Positions 26,636 to 34,589 of a stretch of 34,648 nt of DNA are shown here, in pieces. The stretch's first letter is position 1. The number at the start of each line of letters is the position of its first letter. The stretch comes from a virus. Lineage: Duplodnaviria > Caudoviricetes. The notes below the pieces were generated by a model. The model was given only the letters and a program-made list of their open reading frames with translations, was not told the origin of the DNA and made no database searches. The DNA lies in IMG/VR virus record IMGVR_UViG_3300050343_000107, positions 1 through 34,648 of that record. One strand, written 5' to 3'. Position numbers and translations under genes: made by a program.

Positions 26636-28978
26636 TAACAGAAAAAATATGTGGATTCAATTACTGACTCAGGGTTAAGTGTGTCCAATAATCGGTGGTT
26701 CGGTTTCAGCTCCGATTTGTGCAGCCCAAGACGTTAAGTAATCTTGTTCTGCAAATAAGTGCATGTATGTCTCACGAACAATGGATGAAAGAGTAGACAT
26801 GTCAGTAGCACGACATAAAACCGAGTCGTGTATGAGGGCCAACGGAGCGTTGAAGCGTATTGCAGATAGGTGGAGGAGACTTGCATCTAAGCGAATGAAT
26901 AAGGTTCGGTGCTGTTGCATTTTTATGGTGTGATTTATCTACTTGTCTCCTTCTTCTGTAGCTACTTTGACCTGACATCTACCTAGTAGTTGTAATTCAA
27001 TAGTTTCTACAAGTGGTTTCATTAATCGTTGTGTGACAATAAAACCTGATGGTGTACACCATTGAATTTCTTGTTCACCACGATCGATAGCATTACCTAC
27101 TTCTTTCTCTATCCATTTCATTACCTTCATAGGACCGGGAACAATGACATTCATTGCTTCCACGTACAGCATTGACTGTTTCTGTTAGATCTTCTTTTTC
27201 AATTTCAACACCTTTCTCTTTCAAAGCTTCACGTATGTACCCTCTATTTGAGTAGGTTTTGCGTTGTAAGGAACTGTCATAACTGTCTTTTGTAGTCTTT
27301 CTATCCATGTGTGGACGGATAGATTCAGGAACATTAGGTTTAGCTTGTTCTGCTATTACCTTGTAGGCATCTTGTGGCTTCTCACTAGGCAAGACATTAA
27401 CAAGTTTTGCTGTACTGGCGTCCCTAGCGAGACCTGCAAGGATTTGCAATCCTGAACACGTTGCATCAATGGCAACAGGTAAGTTTGTGTAGTTTCTGTC
27501 ACACAAAATGCAAGTATGATAGTACTCATGTACAAGCGGCAAGGAATTGCCAAGGTTCATCGATCTCCTCCCAGTCTGAAAGGTTTCCAATTGGGTCAGT
27601 TGCAACACGTGTAATTAGCGAGTGATTGTGACTAGTCCAGTTGATACGATCTTCCATCGTTTCTTTATCCTTACCAGCAGTCGTAGCTACTTGAAAGCGT
27701 AGCCAGTCTTCTGCTTCGTAAGTCATTGTTGCTTTCTCTGCGAAGAGCAATAAACTTTTACCGAAGTCTGTATCTTGTGGTGTTAAGAATGCAGGAATTG
27801 GGTAAGCACGTCCTCGGTAGTCAAAACTCCAAGGAATAAAGAATTTCTCTTTATCTTTAAATACTTTGACTGCGTTCATGGTCATTCGTGTACGGCATGA
27901 CCTTTTAAATTGTTGAGCATTGATGTTCATTACATCAGCTGCTTTACGTCGATAGTCTTTGCGAGAATCAAAGTTCTCAGCAATATCTAACGGCTTATTG
28001 GGTAGAGGTAATTCTACAACAGGGACAAACTTACCAATAGCAATACCACGTTCTTGTAGCGTCTCAGCAACACCAACAATGAATGGATTTAGTGTGTAAG
28101 CAACCTTCTGAATATGGTTCAAAAAGGTGATTGGTGTTTCCCCCTGTATACAGGCAGGGATGCTGACCTACGCACCATGTTGTTCCCTTCATTATCTCAT
28201 TTAAGGATGTATCCACCTTGTCTTTCGTTAGTCCAGTCATTTGGTTCAATGAGCATCGGCCAAGCAAGTGGGCTGAATAACTCAGCAGTTGCCATGACTT
28301 CATCTCTGATTTTAAAAATTCAGGCGTGGGAACAATGAATTGATGTGTTTTACGTTCCCTCCCTTATCAGTTCATTGTCAAACCAACCGCTGGCCCGAAT
28401 GATGCAGTCAAGCAGCCAGCCACCAATTTGATTCGGTTGGCTCGTCCCCCAAGGTTGCCAATGCTGCAACTTCGTAGCGTTTCATCAATGTTTTGATGAC
28501 CACTACCTTTTGTTCTGTACCGATTGATCGGTGCCAATAGTTCTCCTTCAGTGTGTAGGAGACCAGGGCAGTTGGTTTCGTAGTGGCGGATGGTGCATTC
28601 ATCCTCTATGGCTTTACCGATGGCATCAGTGACGTTCTGAAGCTGGTTTGCTTTTGGCTTGCTTGAGAACACCTTGTCAAAGGTCACCTTGCAAGCAATG
28701 GCAGCTGCTGCTTCTGGTTCGATGTCGGCAAGAAATTTCTTGATTTCAACAAAAGGCTTACCAACCATCCCGCCTTCATTAATCTAGCAGCAGTGTCTCT
28801 TGATCTGTTCAATGGCCTTCGGTAACAGCTCTTGGATGGAGCTACAGCCATAGACAGAAGCACTTGCATACTCTTTGTCCTGAAGCTTGACCGTGTTGTC
28901 TCTGAGGCGTTCTAAGCCTTGTTTGATCTGTTCCCTTTCGAGCTTGATTTGCTCATCGATTTGGGCTGGTGTTGGCAT
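26635..28978 (-). CDS. Single-subunit RNA polymerase (gp1), frameshifted
   Basis: WSFDYRGRAYP, DATCSGLQIL, LIHDSVL and C-terminal STYFFC*. Confidence 0.95.
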
Positions 28979-29106
28979 CTAAATAATTTGCGCTAGACGC
29001 ACTAGATTCGTTTTTTCCCTATTCACAAGTGGACAAGACTGCAGCGCAGTGAGTGTGACGGATGCGTCCTTGATCTGTCCGCATGTGAATCAGTAGAAAC
29101 ACGCCT

Positions 29107-29145
29107 TTTTAAGTCGCGTGCGTCTACCGATTCCGCCACGCCCCC
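29107..29145 (-). other. Putative attP core: 5' half of tRNA-Leu(TAA)
   Basis: GGGGGCGTGGCGGAATCGGTAGACGCACGCGACTTAAAA = acceptor 5' strand, D arm and anticodon loop; no 3' half; ~85 nt downstream of the integrase. Confidence 0.85.
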
Positions 29146-29228
29146 ACTGGGTTTTCAGTCTATCTGAACAAGGGGTTTTGAAGCTGTACAGGTGCGGTAA
29201 ACCTGTTTTTCTGTCTTGATAGTCGCAA

Positions 29229-30152
29229 CTACAGTTGTGACATCAGGTCATGGTCTTGGCTGTTGTTTTGGCTGTAGTAACCCTCAGTCACAGTGATTGA
29301 AGAGTGTCCAGCCCAACCTTTGACCTTCATAGAAGGAACACCATCGTCTAATGCCCACGTAATGAAAGAGTTACGTAACGTCTTCCAGTAGTGCTTGTCA
29401 GTGACAGTACGATCCTCGTCATTCATAAGACGCAGTACGTGCTTCCATCTGCGATGCAAGTTCCATTGGTTAGGGAACTCATCAAAGATGATGTCGTGAT
29501 ATCCACGATCAGTTCCTGTCCTTGACTTAAGCAATGGCGTCAGTCGTGGATGAATGGGAACCTCTCGGTAGTTACGACCTTTAGTGCGTGTAGCTGCTGT
29601 ACCTCCTACCAACATGACGTTGTTACGCCAGTCAATGTCATCAACATGCAAACGTCTACATTCAGCTTGCCTTAGTCCGCTGTAAGCACTTAACTCAATA
29701 GCTTGAGCTAAAGCATCATCGCCACGTCCTTGGGCAATCTGTACAAGACGATCTACTTGACATTTTGAATAAAATTCAGGTCGTCTACGTTTACCTTCTT
29801 TGAGTTTCTCAATGACAGGTACACCTTGTAAGTAACCACTTCTAGCGCATAGCGTTAGTACTTTCTTAACTGTAGAGATTGCACGGTTAGCTGTGCTTGT
29901 ACTGTTCCCAGTACTTTCAATTAACTCAGCAATGGTTTCATGAACAAAGTCATGATTAATGTCCACAAGTGGAGGGTCACCCCAAATGTCTCTTAGCTTG
30001 TAGTAGTTCCTAATGTTGTTCTGATTACCAGTAGGTAGTTCAGATTCACGCCATGTAGGTAATGTTTGAAGGGTGTGATTGAAGCCTTGAGAAAACTTAC
30101 TTATTTTCTGAGGCTTCTTGTATTCCGTTGCCGGAATGATTGTGAAGTCCAT
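29229..30152 (-). CDS. int: Tyrosine recombinase/integrase
   Basis: YSGLRQAE, TKGRNYREVP, KTLRNSF, WAGHSSITVTEGYY; intact 307-aa ORF. Confidence 0.93.
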   Translation of the reverse strand: MDFTIIPATEYKKPQKISKFSQGFNHTLQTLPTWRESELPTGNQNNIRNYYKLRDIWGDPPLVDINHDFVHETIAELIESTGNSTSTANRAISTVKKVLTLCARSGYLQGVPVIEKLKEGKRRRPEFYSKCQVDRLVQIAQGRGDDALAQAIELSAYSGLRQAECRRLHVDDIDWRNNVMLVGGTAATRTKGRNYREVPIHPRLTPLLKSRTGTDRGYHDIIFDEFPNQWNLHRRWKHVLRLMNDEDRTVTDKHYWKTLRNSFITWALDDGVPSMKVKGWAGHSSITVTEGYYSQNNSQDHDLMSQL

Positions 30153-30504
30153 TTAATTCATTCAGTAGTTCGTCTTTAATGCGAACACCAAGCGGTGTCA
30201 GTCGTAGTTGTAATCTACGTTGATTTAAAGGGTCTGCCTCCTTGGTGATTAGGTTGAGTCCCGCTGTCCTATATCTGTTCTGACTACATAAGTAATCAGT
30301 GTTACGGCTGCCTGATGCAGTGCTTAAACCTAAGTCTTGCTCCATTCGTGCCTTATGGCATTTGTCATGGGAGCAGACATAGAGAAAGCATTGCAATGCC
30401 TGTAAGGGCATGTTGCCATCATCTGTTAAGAGTCTGACAATCTCAATCGCCTTGAAGACGGCAAGGGCGTCGTCGTCTGTAACGAGTCCCCTTAACGGGT
30501 CCAT
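30097..30504 (-). CDS. MarR-like winged-helix transcriptional regulator
   Basis: MEQDLGLSTASGSRNTDYL helix-turn-helix and LITKEADPLNQRRLQLRLTPLG wing; probable ATG at 30504. Confidence 0.8.
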   Translation of the reverse strand: MDPLRGLVTDDDALAVFKAIEIVRLLTDDGNMPLQALQCFLYVCSHDKCHKARMEQDLGLSTASGSRNTDYLCSQNRYRTAGLNLITKEADPLNQRRLQLRLTPLGVRIKDELLNELNGLHNHSGNGIQEASENK

Positions 30505-30622
30505 GATGTAAGGGTTTGGGACCACCACATTCTAGCCTGATCCTCCACAAGTGGATAGAGACATCAGTAAAGGATTCCTTATCGATGCCGAGATAGAAGT
30601 CTCCAAAGGAGAGAATGTTCAT
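30443..30622 (-). CDS. Small hypothetical protein, 59 aa
   Basis: MNILSFGDFYLGIDKESFTDVSIHLWRIRLE...; AAGGA upstream of ATG; below the ORF-track cut-off. Confidence 0.5.
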   Translation of the reverse strand: MNILSFGDFYLGIDKESFTDVSIHLWRIRLECGGPKPLHHGPVKGTRYRRRRPCRLQGD

Positions 30623-30664
30623 GTGTGTCCTTGGTGTGGCTCTTTAATTAAACAGCAGATTTAC

Positions 30665-30901
30665 TTAAGAAGGGAGGATTTCATCTTCATTCTCGATCAA
30701 TAAATGTTTGTAACGATCATCTATTTTCCAATCACCTTGATACAGTCCTGTACGACACATCAGTGTATAAGCACAGCAGCGGCATTTAAAACCGAAACAT
30801 TCTTTACCTGCGCGTTTATCAATTGGTACATCTTCATTGCTAAGTAAGTCACGGGCAAAAGAACAAACAGCAGCAGATCCGTGGATGTGTGACCTTGACA
30901 T
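30665..30901 (-). CDS. Hypothetical protein (probably the 3' part of a frameshifted gene starting near 31050)
   Basis: 78-aa ORF in the dense minus-strand early gene run; otherwise unassigned sequence upstream. Confidence 0.4.
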   Translation of the reverse strand: MSRSHIHGSAAVCSFARDLLSNEDVPIDKRAGKECFGFKCRCCAYTLMCRTGLYQGDWKIDDRYKHLLIENEDEILPS

Positions 30902-31070
30902 CTCCTCAAGTGCTTGAGATAAGAGTCAAACCCCATTTGGCTGCATACAGTTTTAAACTTGTGCATCTTGGTCTGACAGCTGTACGACGACACGCTTCAA
31001 TTAAATGCACCAACTGCATACCTGTGAGAACCATAATCACGCATGGTCCCAATAGTGCAAGATTTATCCG

Positions 31071-31204
31071 TTATCTAACGCAACTAAGAATTGTGTCATC
31101 TTTCATTTGTGCGTCATGAGTGTGAGAAGTTCATCTTTATGGTCATGCATTAAGATTTCTTCATAAAGTGTATCAACTAAGAAATTAAAGGTCGAACTCT
31201 TCAT
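31071..31204 (-). CDS. Small hypothetical protein (indel near 31105)
   Basis: MKSSTFNFLVDTLYEEILMHDHKDELLTLM...QMKDDTILSCVR*. Confidence 0.5.
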
Positions 31205-31532
31205 AGTCGATTTCTTCTCCGATTGGGTTTGGTCCGATGTAATGCTGTGATTCATGGGTGGTGATACATAGGTCATGTGTTTTTGCTTTGCAGAACTCGA
31301 CAAGCTTTTTATCTGCTGCACTGTGCCGCTTGTAGACGTACTCTTTGACTTTCTTTGTTTCGAGATGTGTTGCTCTGATAATGCAGCACACATCTGGTGG
31401 TAACTCCCAACCCGAAACTTTCCAGTCCATAATGTCTAAAAATAGATGCTGTTCAAACATCTCGGCAGGTGCGTCCCTGTACTTCTTCCAATTATTTGGA
31501 AAGTACTTTTTACGTTTACGGTTACCATTCAT
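31185..31532 (-). CDS. Cyanopodovirus-type early hypothetical protein
   Basis: Intact ORF: YFPNNWKKYRDAP...MDWKVSGWELP...CIIRA...KVKEYVYKR. Confidence 0.75.
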   Translation of the reverse strand: MNGNRKRKKYFPNNWKKYRDAPAEMFEQHLFLDIMDWKVSGWELPPDVCCIIRATHLETKKVKEYVYKRHSAADKKLVEFCKAKTHDLCITTHESQHYIGPNPIGEEIDYEEFDL

Positions 31533-31728
31533 CTACGATCCTCACATTAAGTAGTTTTGAGTGCCTGTCTTCGGACAATTCCAATGCTGAATAAGCTGCG
31601 TCCATGGAATCGGCGGCTAAGATGTACATCTTTTCACCACTGGACAGCGTTACTTGATACTCTTGCGGTGAGTGTGAATCTAAGTTATACTTTTGGTTTA
31701 CGTCTTCGTGCTGGTCTTGATGTTGCAA
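31522..31728 (-). CDS. Early hypothetical protein
   Basis: EYQVTLSSGEKMYILAADSMDAAYSALELS; overlaps neighbours in operon fashion. Confidence 0.65.
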   Translation of the reverse strand: MQHQDQHEDVNQKYNLDSHSPQEYQVTLSSGEKMYILAADSMDAAYSALELSEDRHSKLLNVRIVDEW

Positions 31729-31885
31729 TAGGTGGCTCCGATTGATTGAACGTGTCGCGATTCCTTAAGTCGCGATAAATAGGTGCCCACTTATGATCTG
31801 GGAAATGATGTAACCAACAACTAATTGCATTCTTGATGAAGTAATCATCATCAATACTTTTAGTGCTTGGCTTTTCTGTGTTCAT
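31685..31885 (-). CDS. Early hypothetical protein
   Basis: DDDYFIKNAISCWLHHFPDHKW, basic C-terminus. Confidence 0.65.
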   Translation of the reverse strand: MNTEKPSTKSIDDDYFIKNAISCWLHHFPDHKWAPIYRDLRNRDTFNQSEPPIATSRPARRRKPKV

Positions 31886-31948
31886 GTTGTTGTATGATAC
31901 GTTGTAAGTTTTTGTATTTAGTCTTTAGATAATTGATGAATGCTGGTG

Positions 31949-32065
31949 TCATTTCTTTCCGTAATAACGTGAAGTGATACGATTGGAACGTTGATAAACT
32001 GTAGCCGTAGCGAATAGCCCAAGCATTCCAACAACGGCAAGGATGATTGTGGTTTCAGTTGGCAT
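31949..32065 (-). CDS. Small single-pass membrane protein, 38 aa
   Basis: MPTETTIILAVVGMLGLFATATVYQRSNRITSRYYGKK*; AGGAG upstream. Confidence 0.6.
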   Translation of the reverse strand: MPTETTIILAVVGMLGLFATATVYQRSNRITSRYYGKK

Positions 32066-32210
32066 TTTTGAACATCTCCTTATAAAGGTCTAGATTCTGT
32101 TCTTTGTATTCCCTATTGAGTTGTAGAATCTGATTCACGACACCAATCAACTTATTGTGATACATCTCCTCAAGCCTAGTTTGCATGTAATTACGTTCAG
32201 TAATAGTCAT
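32055..32210 (-). CDS. Small hypothetical protein, copy A of tandem pair (51 aa)
   Basis: MTITERNYMQTRLEEMYHNKLIGVVNQILQLNREYKEQNLDLYKEMFKNAN*. Confidence 0.6.
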   Translation of the reverse strand: MTITERNYMQTRLEEMYHNKLIGVVNQILQLNREYKEQNLDLYKEMFKNAN

Positions 32211-32395
32211 TACTTAGAATGCTCAGCTAAATCTTGCAAACATCTCCATAAAGGTTTAGGTTTTGTTCTTTGTATTCTCTGTTGAGTTGTAGACATAATC
32301 TCATCGACACCAATCAACTTGTTTCAACAATGGCGTTGCGATACATCTCCTCACGTAGCCTGGTTTGCATGTAATTACGTTCAGTAATAGTCATT
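32070..32395. repeat. Diverged tandem duplication (~32070-32211 and ~32238-32395)
   Basis: Shared blocks including gtttgcatgtaattacgttcagtaatagtcatt, cgacaccaatcaactt and tgttctttgtattc. Confidence 0.9.
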
Positions 32396-32593
32396 TGATG
32401 AAGGTGATGTGTACGTGGCCGCGGCTCCTAGTTGCTGATACAATTTCTCCATCACCAAAGGCTTTTTGATTCTTGTGTCTTTGCCACGGTGGTGGATGAT
32501 TAGTTGCATAGCTGCGTCCTTGGTGAGTGTGAAGAGGTTGATGTGAGCAAAAAAAATAATACTAATAGACAAGCTGTTAGTATTACTTTGCAT
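32381..32593 (-). CDS. Hypothetical protein (real start may be 32508)
   Basis: ORF track; AAGGA precedes the internal ATG of MQLIIHHRGKD. Confidence 0.4.
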   Translation of the reverse strand: MQSNTNSLSISIIFFAHINLFTLTKDAAMQLIIHHRGKDTRIKKPLVMEKLYQQLGAAATYTSPSSNDYY

Positions 32594-32622
32594 TAGTGGA
32601 TAGATAGATTAATAAGAACTAA

Positions 32623-33261
32623 TCAGAAGTAGTTTGAAAAGAAATAAGTAACACCTTTAAATTCCAGTGTTGAATAGTCGTATCTTAAGTTACGTTCCCA
32701 ACTTGCTTCCCAATCGATAACAACCCAAGGCATATCAATGAATGTAGTGCATCCATACGCTTCAGCTTGTTCTTCTGCAAACTCAGCGCAAGCGTTATAA
32801 CTTTCTGTCTGATATTGCAAAGCATCTTCAAACTGTGATGCTGTGGTGATACCTAATGAGCTGAGTTCATCCATAAACTCACGACATTCTTCGGGTGTGT
32901 AGTTACTAAAGTCACCGCACATTTCTTGAATCTCATCAATTAACTCTTTATCTTGCTCTTCAAGTGATACGTGCCAATCATCATACTCTTTATCATCAGA
33001 GTCTATTTTTGGCATACCTTTAGCTTCCATTAATGCCATATAAAAATCAGTCCAACGTATTTTGCCGTCTTTCTCATATCCAGCCGCCTTAGCCATATCT
33101 GTTTTATTTGCTGGAATACCTTGCTTTTCATATGAAGCGTTTGCTTCATTGACAAATGTAAGTAAGTCGTCACCAGTAAATGGTAAAGAAGAGGGGAAAT
33201 GTTGTTTGATGTAATCATCACGCTCTTTACCAGTGAGCAACACTGTAGATTCAGAAGTCAT
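32623..33261 (-). CDS. Cyanobacterial AbrB-like N-terminal domain fused to acidic ArdA-like C-terminal domain
   Basis: TGDDLL...KTDMAKAAGY...WTDFYMALMEAKG (cyAbrB N-terminal pattern); EFAEE...IDWEASWERNLRYDY...GVTYFF (ArdA-like). Confidence 0.65.
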   Translation of the reverse strand: MTSESTVLLTGKERDDYIKQHFPSSLPFTGDDLLTFVNEANASYEKQGIPANKTDMAKAAGYEKDGKIRWTDFYMALMEAKGMPKIDSDDKEYDDWHVSLEEQDKELIDEIQEMCGDFSNYTPEECREFMDELSSLGITTASQFEDALQYQTESYNACAEFAEEQAEAYGCTTFIDMPWVVIDWEASWERNLRYDYSTLEFKGVTYFFSNYF

Positions 33262-33310
33262 AAGGGGAAAATGTTAGTGAGTTTGGTTGAGTGTGAATGT
33301 TAGTGCGTAC

Positions 33311-33577
33311 TTAAGCAAACGCTGCGAGATGCTCACAGCTGCCGAAGGTTGCACACTTAGCGTCGCAATACAGTAGGTTATGATTAACCCAGAAACCAAG
33401 TGAAATGTTGTCTTGAATCAAGAGGTTTAGAATAGCTCGGCGTGAGACGTTAGTGTAAACATAGGCTTCTCCGTTGCTGTACTCAACGTAAACCTCAGCA
33501 TTGACTAAATCAGTGCTGATGTTGTTGACAGCTGCAGAAGGACGTTGAACGGTGTTGATAGCGAATGGATTGAACAT
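33311..33577 (-). CDS. KTSC-like domain protein
   Basis: SAAV...VYVEYSNGEAYVYTNVS...SLGFWVN; probable ATG at 33577. Confidence 0.6.
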   Translation of the reverse strand: MFNPFAINTVQRPSAAVNNISTDLVNAEVYVEYSNGEAYVYTNVSRRAILNLLIQDNISLGFWVNHNLLYCDAKCATFGSCEHLAAFA

Positions 33578-33618
33578 TAGTGGATAGATAGGATGAATAA
33601 ATAAAGAGTTAGTGAAGC

Positions 33619-33855
33619 TCAAGCAAGTTGAAGGTAATCAACTTCATTGTTAACGAGTGCTTCGCTTACCCACTTGCCAAGTGACTTAACACTGCCAAGT
33701 GTGAGTTGATAGATGCAATCACTGCAGACGTTGCTGTAGAGATAAGTCTTGCCACCGTTAAATGTGACTTTGACTTGATTGGTAGCCTCACTGATACCGA
33801 CTGACTCAACAGCTGAAGAGTTGTAGTCGTTAGCGTAGAGGAATGATGCTTGCAT
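33619..33855 (-). CDS. KTSC-like domain protein
   Basis: SSAVESVG...VKVTFNGGKTYLYSNV...SLGKWVS. Confidence 0.65.
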   Translation of the reverse strand: MQASFLYANDYNSSAVESVGISEATNQVKVTFNGGKTYLYSNVCSDCIYQLTLGSVKSLGKWVSEALVNNEVDYLQLA

Positions 33856-33939
33856 TGTGTGAGTGTGAGTATAGAATAGTGAGGTAATTAATACCTCAGA
33901 AAACCTTAGCTAAGGCTTAGTGAGATAATAGATTGTTCA

Positions 33940-34167
33940 TTAGTGGATAGAAGAAAGAAGAGGAGACATCTCATCATTGACATAAGTACCAAGCTCAACT
34001 TCATCGTAATACTCAGCATCATTCAGTAGTTCGTAATACTTACAGAGTGATTCAAAGATAGAGTCAGTTTCAAGCTCAGTCTCAAGATAGTCGTTGAGTT
34101 CTGTCGCAACGTAGTAAGGCTTTGTCAAATGGATTGGGTAGTGCTTGTTTGTTGATGCTGTAAGCAT
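33940..34167 (-). CDS. First early gene, small acidic protein
   Basis: MLTASTNKHYP...ELNDYLETELETDSIFE...DAEYYDEVELG; ATG at 34167 within track ORF 33940..34305. Confidence 0.55.
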   Translation of the reverse strand: MLTASTNKHYPIHLTKPYYVATELNDYLETELETDSIFESLCKYYELLNDAEYYDEVELGTYVNDEMSPLLSSIH

Positions 34168-34589
34168 AGCAGACTTGGAAGCGGTTTGGTTGGAAAGGTG
34201 GACAGCTTGTAGATTGTCCACAAGTGAGAGAGTGTTGCTGCTTCTCTCCCCTTGACTTAGTAAGTATGGCACAGCCTCAAGCGCTTTGGGTGGTTTGGTG
34301 TTCACCTTGTCAACTGTCCACTGATGGATAGGTTAAGAGTATTGAGCTGTTGTTAGTTAATAACTATTAGTACTGTTGTTAATATATTAGTGCTGCGTTG
34401 TCTATTATGTATGCGCTATGATGATTGTGAATACTTAACAGCGCTAATCTGTTGTGATACGATATCGTACCAGCTATAATTATTGATAAGAATTGTAACG
34501 CCGACAGATTGGTGTAGATTGAGTGAAAGACAGTGAGCCCAGTTTGCCCCGGTTGGGCATCATATAGCAGTGTTTTACACGCCACTAAC

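What the first reader, a model, noticed from the sequence alone, without database searches (positions are those of the whole stretch)
29020..34330. Repeated palindromic operator-like sites with a MarR-like regulator, integrase and attP: candidate lysis-lysogeny circuit in a T7-like cyanophage
Seen (+ strand): TATTCACAAGTGGACA (29020), TGTCCGCATGTGAATC (29076), TGTCCACAAGTGGAGG (29960), CCTCCACAAGTGGATA (30542), TTTGCATTAGTGGATA (32587), TGAACATTAGTGGATA (33571), TGTTCATTAGTGGATA (33934), TGTCCACAAGTGAGAG (34215), TGTCCACTGATGGATA (34315). Two lie between attP and the RNA polymerase start, one ~40 nt upstream of the MarR-like ATG, two in the genome-end leader, and three overlap ATGs (CTATCCACTAATG on the minus strand). 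I noticed none in the other 29 kb. Known: MarR dimers bind palindromes of about this size. Inference: the phage regulator could silence early genes and RNA polymerase, allowing integration of a nominally lytic phage. Alternative: the half-sites resemble DnaA boxes (TTATCCACA) or integrase accessory sites.
Basis: partly seen in the sequence, partly recalled or inferred. Interest (0 to 1): 0.8.

Follow-up and report, generated by a model that had tools for sequence, protein, structure and literature searches.

The report
Cyanophage repressor operators, captured by hosts
The repeated palindrome is real and is likely the DNA site where this marine cyanophage's own MarR-like protein docks to damp its early genes and RNA polymerase gene; the same site follows the gene across related phages and into Prochlorococcus chromosomes, which gives a direct test of whether these 'lytic' phages carry a repressor.

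Summary
All nine 16-mers are at the stated places. Eight rank in the top 10 of the window under a matrix trained on distant phages. Seven or eight look like real sites; 29960 is probably a coding accident, and the 'ATG overlap' is incidental.

The palindrome tracks the MarR-like gene. It sits at fixed spots in that gene's promoter and in the attP arm before RNA polymerase. It is enriched in early leaders of cassette-bearing phages (81 vs 17 expected) and not in cassette-less ones (8 vs 8). It lies in the spacer of two experimentally mapped promoters of Pseudomonas phage LUZ100. It also precedes 23 of 23 full-length Prochlorococcus chromosomal homologues, which have no integrase or polymerase nearby. 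DnaA, NtcA and integrase-arm readings fit worse.

Best reading: operator of the phage regulator, acting mainly as a repressor. Binding and repression are untested, and stable lysogeny is not shown. The scheme was already proposed for temperate T7-like phages. New here are the cyanophage operator, a third cassette gene, and repeated host capture of gene plus operator.

The parts
34315..34330 (-). operator, leader unit 1; ends 46 nt before an extended -10
   Evidence: conserved in 4 of 4 relatives aligned
34297..34306 (-). degenerate half-site, unit 1
   Evidence: weak
34263..34271 (-). predicted extended -10 of early promoter 1
   Evidence: invariant in 5 of 5 aligned leaders; start site not measured
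34215..34230 (-). operator, leader unit 2 (one strong half); also 46 nt before an extended -10
   Evidence: better palindrome in relatives
34198..34204 (-). half-site 10 nt after 34215, over the predicted -35 region
   Evidence: invariant in 5 of 5
34163..34171 (-). predicted extended -10 of early promoter 2
   Evidence: invariant in 5 of 5
33934..33949 (-). operator in early region
33571..33586 (-). operator overlapping the start of a KTSC-like early gene (33311-33577, phrog_7365)
32587..32602 (-). operator in intergenic gap after the Ocr/ArdA-like anti-restriction gene
   Evidence: fuller palindrome in relatives
30443..30622 (-). small conserved cassette gene (59 aa; conserved core about 35 aa); carries the regulator's operator and -10 inside its coding sequence
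   Evidence: 48 of 54 and 1 of 1 cassette phages, 0 of 23 cassette-less; no family hit
30542..30557 (-). operator over the predicted -35 and spacer of the regulator/integrase promoter
   Evidence: at -53 in 13 of 13 close relatives; 7 nt before the -10 in 40 of 55 phages
30529..30534 (-). predicted -10 hexamer of regulator/integrase promoter
30097..30504 (-). MarR-like winged-helix regulator, 135 aa, orthologue of P-SSP7 pMarR/gp0.7
   Evidence: phrog_9665; 44-47% to P-SSP7; model pLDDT 86; MarR folds on top
29229..30152 (-). tyrosine integrase, 307 aa
   Evidence: PF00589, phrog_1
29960..29975 (-). motif match inside integrase; likely incidental
29220..29231 (-). left direct repeat at the integrase stop; likely integrase arm-type site
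   Evidence: inferred
29188..29206 (-). hairpin after the integrase gene
29157..29162 (-). conserved -10-like hexamer just before attP; would supply a promoter for the rebuilt tRNA
   Evidence: TAnnCT invariant in 8 of 8; inferred
29107..29145 (-). attP core: 5' half of tRNA-Leu(TAA)
   Evidence: 39 of 39 bases match a tRNA-Leu in Synechococcus sp. AG-679-A04
29076..29091 (-). weak operator 1 in attP arm
29038..29050 (-). conserved hairpin between the two attP-arm operators (a terminator-like hairpin in most distant phages)
29020..29035 (-). strong operator 2, 41 nt before the RNA polymerase start
   Evidence: 13 of 13 close relatives; fixed 15 nt before the right repeat in distant phages
28993..29004 (-). 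right direct repeat; likely integrase arm-type site
   Evidence: inferred
26675..28978 (-). T7-like RNA polymerase, in frameshifted pieces
   Evidence: phrog_414

Best explanation
The repeated palindrome is likely the operator of the phage's own MarR-like dimer, which would bind it to repress the early host-type promoters, its own promoter and entry into the RNA polymerase gene. Shown by sequence: a cassette of small gene, regulator, integrase and attP (tRNA-Leu 5' half) is inherited and lost as a unit, and the sites go with it. Inferred: on entry, host polymerase makes the regulator; as it builds up it fills the near-perfect sites in the leader and before RNA polymerase, then the site over its own -35, giving negative feedback. 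After integration the host tRNA promoter would point into RNA polymerase, and the operator-hairpin-operator block would stop that read-through. The result is a repressed or slowed state tied to integration. Whether it gives stable lysogeny is not shown.
For: Fixed position in close relatives (13 of 13 before the regulator, 13 of 13 before RNA polymerase). Site 7 nt before the -10 in 40 of 55 phages. Leader enrichment outside the training sites: 81 vs 17.1 expected in 51 cassette phages, 8 vs 7.7 in 23 cassette-less; cassette-less lineages arise at least 6 times. The one regulator-plus, integrase-minus phage (L097) keeps sites; Syn5 (integrase, no regulator) has none at 10 bits. 23 of 23 full-length Prochlorococcus homologues carry the palindrome upstream with no integrase or polymerase nearby; a strict pattern occurs 1, 2 and 1 times in three whole genomes. 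In LUZ100 the two best matches in 4.9 kb lie between -35 and -10 of the mapped promoters P1 and P2, and half-sites flank terminator T4 between attP and RNA polymerase. Pasto, with a different recognition helix, lacks this motif at such places. The P-SSP7 orthologue is a DNA-binding dimer; its key residues S66, R67, G106 are kept (PMC9692554). Synonymous constraint survives the overlap with the small gene.
Against: No binding data for any of these sites. The P-SSP7 protein was reported to activate a host promoter and to bind RNA polymerase alpha; no match above 4.1 bits lies near rne in two other Prochlorococcus genomes (PMC9692554). In this clade's leader the main sites are centred about -66 from the predicted start, an activator-like position. 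S-TIP37 gave no stable lysogens (PMC8776855) and LUZ100 none either (PMC10134795). Only 6 independent pairs exist and the sign test is not significant (median p 0.5). The own-promoter site lies in coding sequence. 17 of 54 cassette phages have no site of 7 bits or more before RNA polymerase. HTVC019P and SS120-1 show no clear site. Regulator and integrase almost never separate among phages.
Confidence: 0.68

Rival explanations
1. Same protein and sites, but it mainly activates or times early transcription during lytic growth (upstream site plus alpha-subunit contact) and represses only its own promoter.
For: pMarR binds RNA polymerase alpha and activates rne (PMC9692554). Leader sites centred near -66 and half-sites near -40; host site ends 27-28 nt before a -10 in 12 of 13.
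Against: Regulator and sites were lost together at least 6 times in viable phages. In LUZ100 the site fills the spacer of measured promoters. The gene is tied to the integrase.
Confidence: 0.12
2. The protein is a dual-use factor like P2 Cox or 186 Apl (recalled): its attP-arm sites bend DNA and set the direction of recombination, and transcription control is secondary. Compatible with the best reading.
For: Operator 2 lies a fixed 15 nt from the right arm-type repeat across distant phages (summed score 291 at 15 nt, at most 21 at other spacings except the second repeat at 24). Both operators lie between core and arm.
Against: Most sites are far from attP, at promoters. Host copies keep the site with no integrase. 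The repeat could instead be a promoter element.
Confidence: 0.1
3. The sites are host DnaA boxes that pull DnaA to the phage left end.
For: The strong half resembles the recalled box (3 of 18 halves match 8 of 9); DnaA is universal, which would fit LUZ100; sites are polar (strong half first in 64 of 81).
Against: 0 of 18 halves are perfect; the base before the half is T in only 8 of 35 and 1 of 24 sites. Host versions are symmetric and near-unique per genome. Cassette-less phages lack them.
Confidence: 0.04
4. The sites are for a host regulator (NtcA or LexA type) or are integrase arm-type sites.
For: Same 16-bp frame as the recalled NtcA box; regulator and integrase co-occur.
Against: 0 perfect NtcA boxes among 9 window, 59 phage and 13 host sites. 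A separate direct repeat flanks attP. Sites persist without integrase (L097, host loci). LexA box spacing differs (recalled, not tested).
Confidence: 0.03
5. Much of the conservation is a by-product of protein coding and promoter sequence.
For: The own-promoter site encodes a conserved peptide; 29960 and 27302 are coding; its left half sits at the -35 position.
Against: Ile ATC 22 of 22, Val GTC 14 of 16, Arg AGR 25 of 25 at the site vs 9 of 29 two codons on. Leader, attP-arm and host sites are largely non-coding.
Confidence: 0.03

Closest known systems
MarR-like regulator/integrase module of temperate T7-like phages (Pasto, LUZ100; Boeckman 2022 as cited in PMC10134795)
   Same: Regulator-integrase operon before RNA polymerase; proposed repression through sites flanking the promoter; regulator promoter inside a small upstream gene (LUZ100 P3 in gp09).
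   Different: Host is a cyanobacterium. The operator is defined here and also found in LUZ100 P1/P2, which the passages I read do not report. Pasto does not use this motif. I could not read Boeckman 2022, so it may list sites.
pMarR (PSSP7_011, gp0.7) of Prochlorococcus phage P-SSP7 (PMC9692554)
   Same: Orthologue, 44-47% identical, same key residues; P-SSP7 carries the site in leader, own promoter and attP arm.
   Different: That paper reports activation of host rne, ladder-like binding (KD 320 nM) and no consensus site; its main text reports no test of these phage sites.
Integration module of S-TIP37 and P-SSP7 (PMC8776855)
   Same: Integrase plus tRNA-Leu attP between integrase and RNA polymerase.
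   Different: That paper found no homologue of known repressors and no stable lysogens; the present sites point to a repressor it did not count. S-TIP37's recognition helix and sites are divergent.
Stoperators of cluster A mycobacteriophages (L5 gp71; recalled)
   Same: Many polar repressor sites spread along early genes.
   Different: Different protein family; here quasi-palindromic, confined mostly to the early region, and not enriched at start codons.
Prochlorococcus PMM0363-like chromosomal regulators
   Same: Homologous (36% to this protein) with the same palindrome upstream.
   Different: Orphan in islands, no integrase or polymerase; no function found in print.

Membership tests
MarR family | winged helix-turn-helix fold with N- and C-terminal dimer helices | tested here: met
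   Model pLDDT 86, helices and wing in order; top matches all MarR proteins, E 2e-4, TM about 0.55
MarR family | curated profile match | tested here: not met
   No Pfam hit; NCBIfam far below cut-off; a host homologue just reaches MarR_2. Hence 'MarR-like'.
MarR family | dimer binds a palindromic operator at its own promoter | tested here: inconclusive
   Position conserved; dimer shown only for the P-SSP7 orthologue (PMC9692554); binding to this site not testable here
MarR family | release from DNA by a ligand or oxidation | not testable with these tools
   C49-H50 invariant in 37 of 37; role unknown
pMarR/gp0.7 orthologues (phrog_9665) | profile match, position before integrase, S66/R67/G106 | tested here: met
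temperate T7-like lysogeny module | regulator + tyrosine integrase + tRNA attP before RNA polymerase | tested here: met
temperate T7-like lysogeny module | stable prophage and immunity | not testable with these tools
   No integrated copy seen among the 38 loci (five are phage contigs in mixed bins; junctions not checked); negative in S-TIP37 (PMC8776855)
DnaA box | 9-mer TTWTNCACA (recalled) | tested here: not met
   0 of 18 half-sites perfect
NtcA site | GTA-N8-TAC (recalled) | tested here: not met
   0 of 81 sites
integrase arm-type site | short direct repeats on both sides of the core only | tested here: not met
   Palindromes are on one side and far away; another repeat flanks the core
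Cox/Apl-like directionality factor | changes direction of recombination | not testable with these tools
   only the fixed 15-nt spacing

The most novel reading that the evidence does not exclude
Prochlorococcus has repeatedly captured this phage repressor with its operator and keeps it as a self-tuning, prophage-free immunity gene: it has almost no other target on its own chromosome, so it would act on the operators of incoming T7-like cyanophages, slowing early genes and RNA polymerase. Cassette loss and operator drift in phages would then be partly escape. For: 32 of 157 genomes carry a homologue; host copies sit at 5 places in the tree, at least 2 forced; dN/dS 0.07; neighbours vary. Against: MED4 has a homologue yet is lysed by P-SSP7 (PMC9692554); P-SSP7 sites score -4 to 9.8 on the host matrix against 18-25 for host sites; no PADLOC match of note; only 2 of 46 Synechococcus genomes carry one.
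Probability: 0.2. Interest if true: 0.85.

Novelty: new variant of a known kind. Interest (0 to 1): 0.6.

Why it matters
T7-like cyanophages integrate but were judged to lack a repressor and lysogeny (PMC8776855), and their one transcription factor was studied without a known site (PMC9692554). A defined operator at known positions in P-SSP7, S-CBP1 and LUZ100 makes both questions testable with one gel shift and one phage knockout. The captured host copies raise a possible new kind of anti-phage defence in the most abundant photosynthetic cell, about one genome in five of those searched.

Tried and rejected
DnaA, NtcA and integrase-arm readings. TAATG stop-start overlap as the cause. The TCTAG repeat as a late phage promoter: its other copies in the window lie inside genes. 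A wider host regulon: of 21 other host matches fetched, the recurrent ones are coding (RNase III, a phosphatase); a few are intergenic. A site near rne: none in 2 genomes, neither of them MED4. Independent-pairs test: too few pairs. Rfam: nothing. Consensus promoter scan: 8 found, 12.5 expected, uninformative. Small gene: 2 homologues only, no Atlas hit. No complex prediction was obtained, so binding of the small protein to the regulator is open. Host-only matrix separates phage classes weakly (0.29 vs 0.15 per kb). Two earlier-finding searches were empty.
Full report
Setting. The window is most of a T7-like cyanopodovirus read on the minus strand, with frameshift-type errors. From the genome end come small early genes, a MarR-like gene (30097-30504), a tyrosine integrase (29229-30152), attP and RNA polymerase. 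The attP core matches 39 of 39 bases of a tRNA-Leu(TAA) in Synechococcus sp. AG-679-A04, and not MIT 9302 within 3 mismatches (2 genomes tried), so the host is probably Synechococcus.

Observation. All nine strings are exact. Five beat every 16-mer of the first 28.9 kb in leave-one-out; four do not. A matrix from 24 attP-arm and 35 own-promoter sites of 46 distant phages ranks 8 of 9 in the top 10 of 34,633 positions; those sites were picked by distance from a -10 hexamer or a repeat, the 24 with a loose filter. Early region: 8 hits against 0.6 for permuted matrices; rest: 2 against 3.1. A tenth match lies at 27302. It and 29960 follow conserved peptides and are likely incidental. The ATG overlap is not general.

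The site follows the regulator among phages. In close relatives it sits at -53 from the regulator start in 13 of 13 and before RNA polymerase in 13 of 13. I kept 78 non-redundant loci of 117 with at least 2 kb before RNA polymerase: 54 with regulator and integrase there, 1 with regulator only, 23 with neither (Syn5, whose integrase lies downstream, counts among the 23). With the window-only matrix, upstream density at 10 bits is 0.50 against 0.06 per kb, and 37 of 54 against 1 of 23 have a site just before RNA polymerase; in the 23 that stretch is coding, so this second contrast is soft. Leaving out all training positions, leaders hold 81 hits against 17.1 expected in 51 cassette loci and 8 against 7.7 in 23 others; downstream of the polymerase start cassette phages also show a milder excess (72 against 32.6; 4 of 100). 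On a tree of 74 of the 78 polymerases (4 dropped for short frames), cassette-less phages need at least 6 changes, but only 6 independent pairs exist and the sign test is not significant.

Geometry. At the regulator's promoter the site ends 7 nt before a -10 hexamer in 40 of 55 phages, so it covers the predicted -35 and spacer: a repressing position. That promoter lies inside a small unannotated gene found in 49 of 55 cassette phages and 0 of 23 others; codon choice at the site is far more fixed than the peptide needs (background usage is rough). In the attP arm the order is core, operator, hairpin, operator, then a repeat a fixed 15 nt on (13 in the window, probably a homopolymer error). The same repeat sits at the integrase stop, which makes it the better candidate for integrase arm sites. 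In this clade's leader two tandem units each place a site 46 nt before an extended -10, with a half-site between; that is ambiguous for sign. Leader sites are polar, strong half first in 64 of 81.

Outside cyanophages. In LUZ100 the two best matches in 4.9 kb fill the spacers of promoters P1 and P2, mapped by ONT-cappable-seq, and half-sites flank terminator T4 between an attP-like tRNA-Leu piece and RNA polymerase. HTVC119P has two matches in its attP arm; HTVC109P has one at the integrase end; HTVC019P and SS120-1 show none that is clear. Pasto has another recognition helix and, by eye, another palindrome in its leader.

Host copies. Of 38 loci from the genome scan, 23 are full-length Prochlorococcus homologues in AT-rich chromosomal DNA without integrase or polymerase; all 23 carry the palindrome 64-80 nt upstream, while 7 truncated copies and one Synechococcus copy do not. 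One is in the complete MIT 9302 chromosome beside core genes and a tRNA-Met. A strict pattern, drawn partly from these sites, hits 23 of 32 genomes with a homologue and 18 of 125 without (my cross-count); most other hits fetched are coding chance. Two more host lineages exist: one sister to P-SSP7 with two related sites upstream, and one with no clear site. The tree is the quick one, on 126 columns: 5 label changes, at least 2 forced. The main lineage is under purifying selection (median dN/dS 0.07 over 66 pairs of 12 genes). This is the best separation of regulator from integrase, and it makes a global host factor unlikely.

Protein. The model is a winged helix with MarR structures as top matches, though no curated MarR profile passes.

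Literature and what I saw. PMC9692554: main text in full (parts 1-4 of 6) and a term search of its supplement; the footprint figure is a picture I could not see, and may bear on the binding site. PMC8776855: abstract, outline and passages. PMC10134795: passages and section 10; its promoter table is not held as text. bioRxiv 10.1101/410191, PMC12361551, PMC4646655, PMC1242208: passages only. Boeckman 2022: not held; known only through PMC10134795, which says it proposed repression of RNA polymerase through flanking sites. Ten searches showed no paper giving this operator or a role for the host copies; most subscription papers are outside the library. Cox, Apl, stoperators and the DnaA, NtcA and LexA motifs are recalled. 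Earlier notes of this scan reach the same operator reading for other genomes; they are not independent evidence.

Verdict. Operator of the phage regulator: about 0.88. Mainly repressing: about 0.7 overall. A working, stable lysogeny switch in cyanobacteria: about 0.3. Captured host immunity: about 0.2. The scheme is known in outline; the site, the third gene and the host capture are the additions.

Noticed in passing
window 30443-30622 (-): Small conserved gene found only in cassette phages (49 of 55 vs 0 of 23); no family. LUZ100 has an unrelated-looking small gene in the same place that also holds the regulator promoter.
   Followed up: partly
window 33867, 33295, 32531, 31676, 31124, 29057, 21075 (-): A second motif, CACACTCA, seven times on the coding strand, often shortly before gene starts; also before RNA polymerase in many relatives. 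Unexplained.
   Followed up: no
window 29157-29162 (-): Conserved -10-like hexamer before a 5'-half tRNA attP: the phage would supply the tRNA's promoter after integration, and the same promoter points at RNA polymerase in the free genome.
   Followed up: partly
L237:1948 and 2014; L246:1557: Intergenic operator matches in two Prochlorococcus genomes next to the same uncharacterised divergent gene; one genome has no detected homologue of the regulator.
   Followed up: no
L222, L223, L224, L225: Two further host lineages of the regulator; L222 and L223 share an unknown downstream gene of about 200 aa; L224 lies near a DUF2130 gene.
   Followed up: partly
L259:390-720 (Pasto leader): A different palindrome occurs about three times, one copy between a -35-like and a -10-like hexamer; possibly Pasto's operator. 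Seen by eye only.
   Followed up: no
L002 (S-TIP37): The phage used for the negative lysogeny test has a changed recognition helix and weak, variant sites under this matrix.
   Followed up: partly
window 32623-33261, 33311-33577, 33619-33855 (-): Acidic anti-restriction-like protein and two tandem KTSC-like genes among the early genes.
   Followed up: no
window 32557-32586: AT-rich hairpin with a T run right after the 32587 site, present in 3 of 8 aligned genomes.
   Followed up: no
window 32040-32400: Near-duplicate stretch of about 180 nt around a small gene (phrog_19748), seen by eye.
   Followed up: no
L024-L028: T7-like cyanophage contigs binned into unrelated bacterial metagenome assemblies.
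   Followed up: no
L258 (SS120-1): Regulator and integrase lie after RNA polymerase rather than before it.
   Followed up: no
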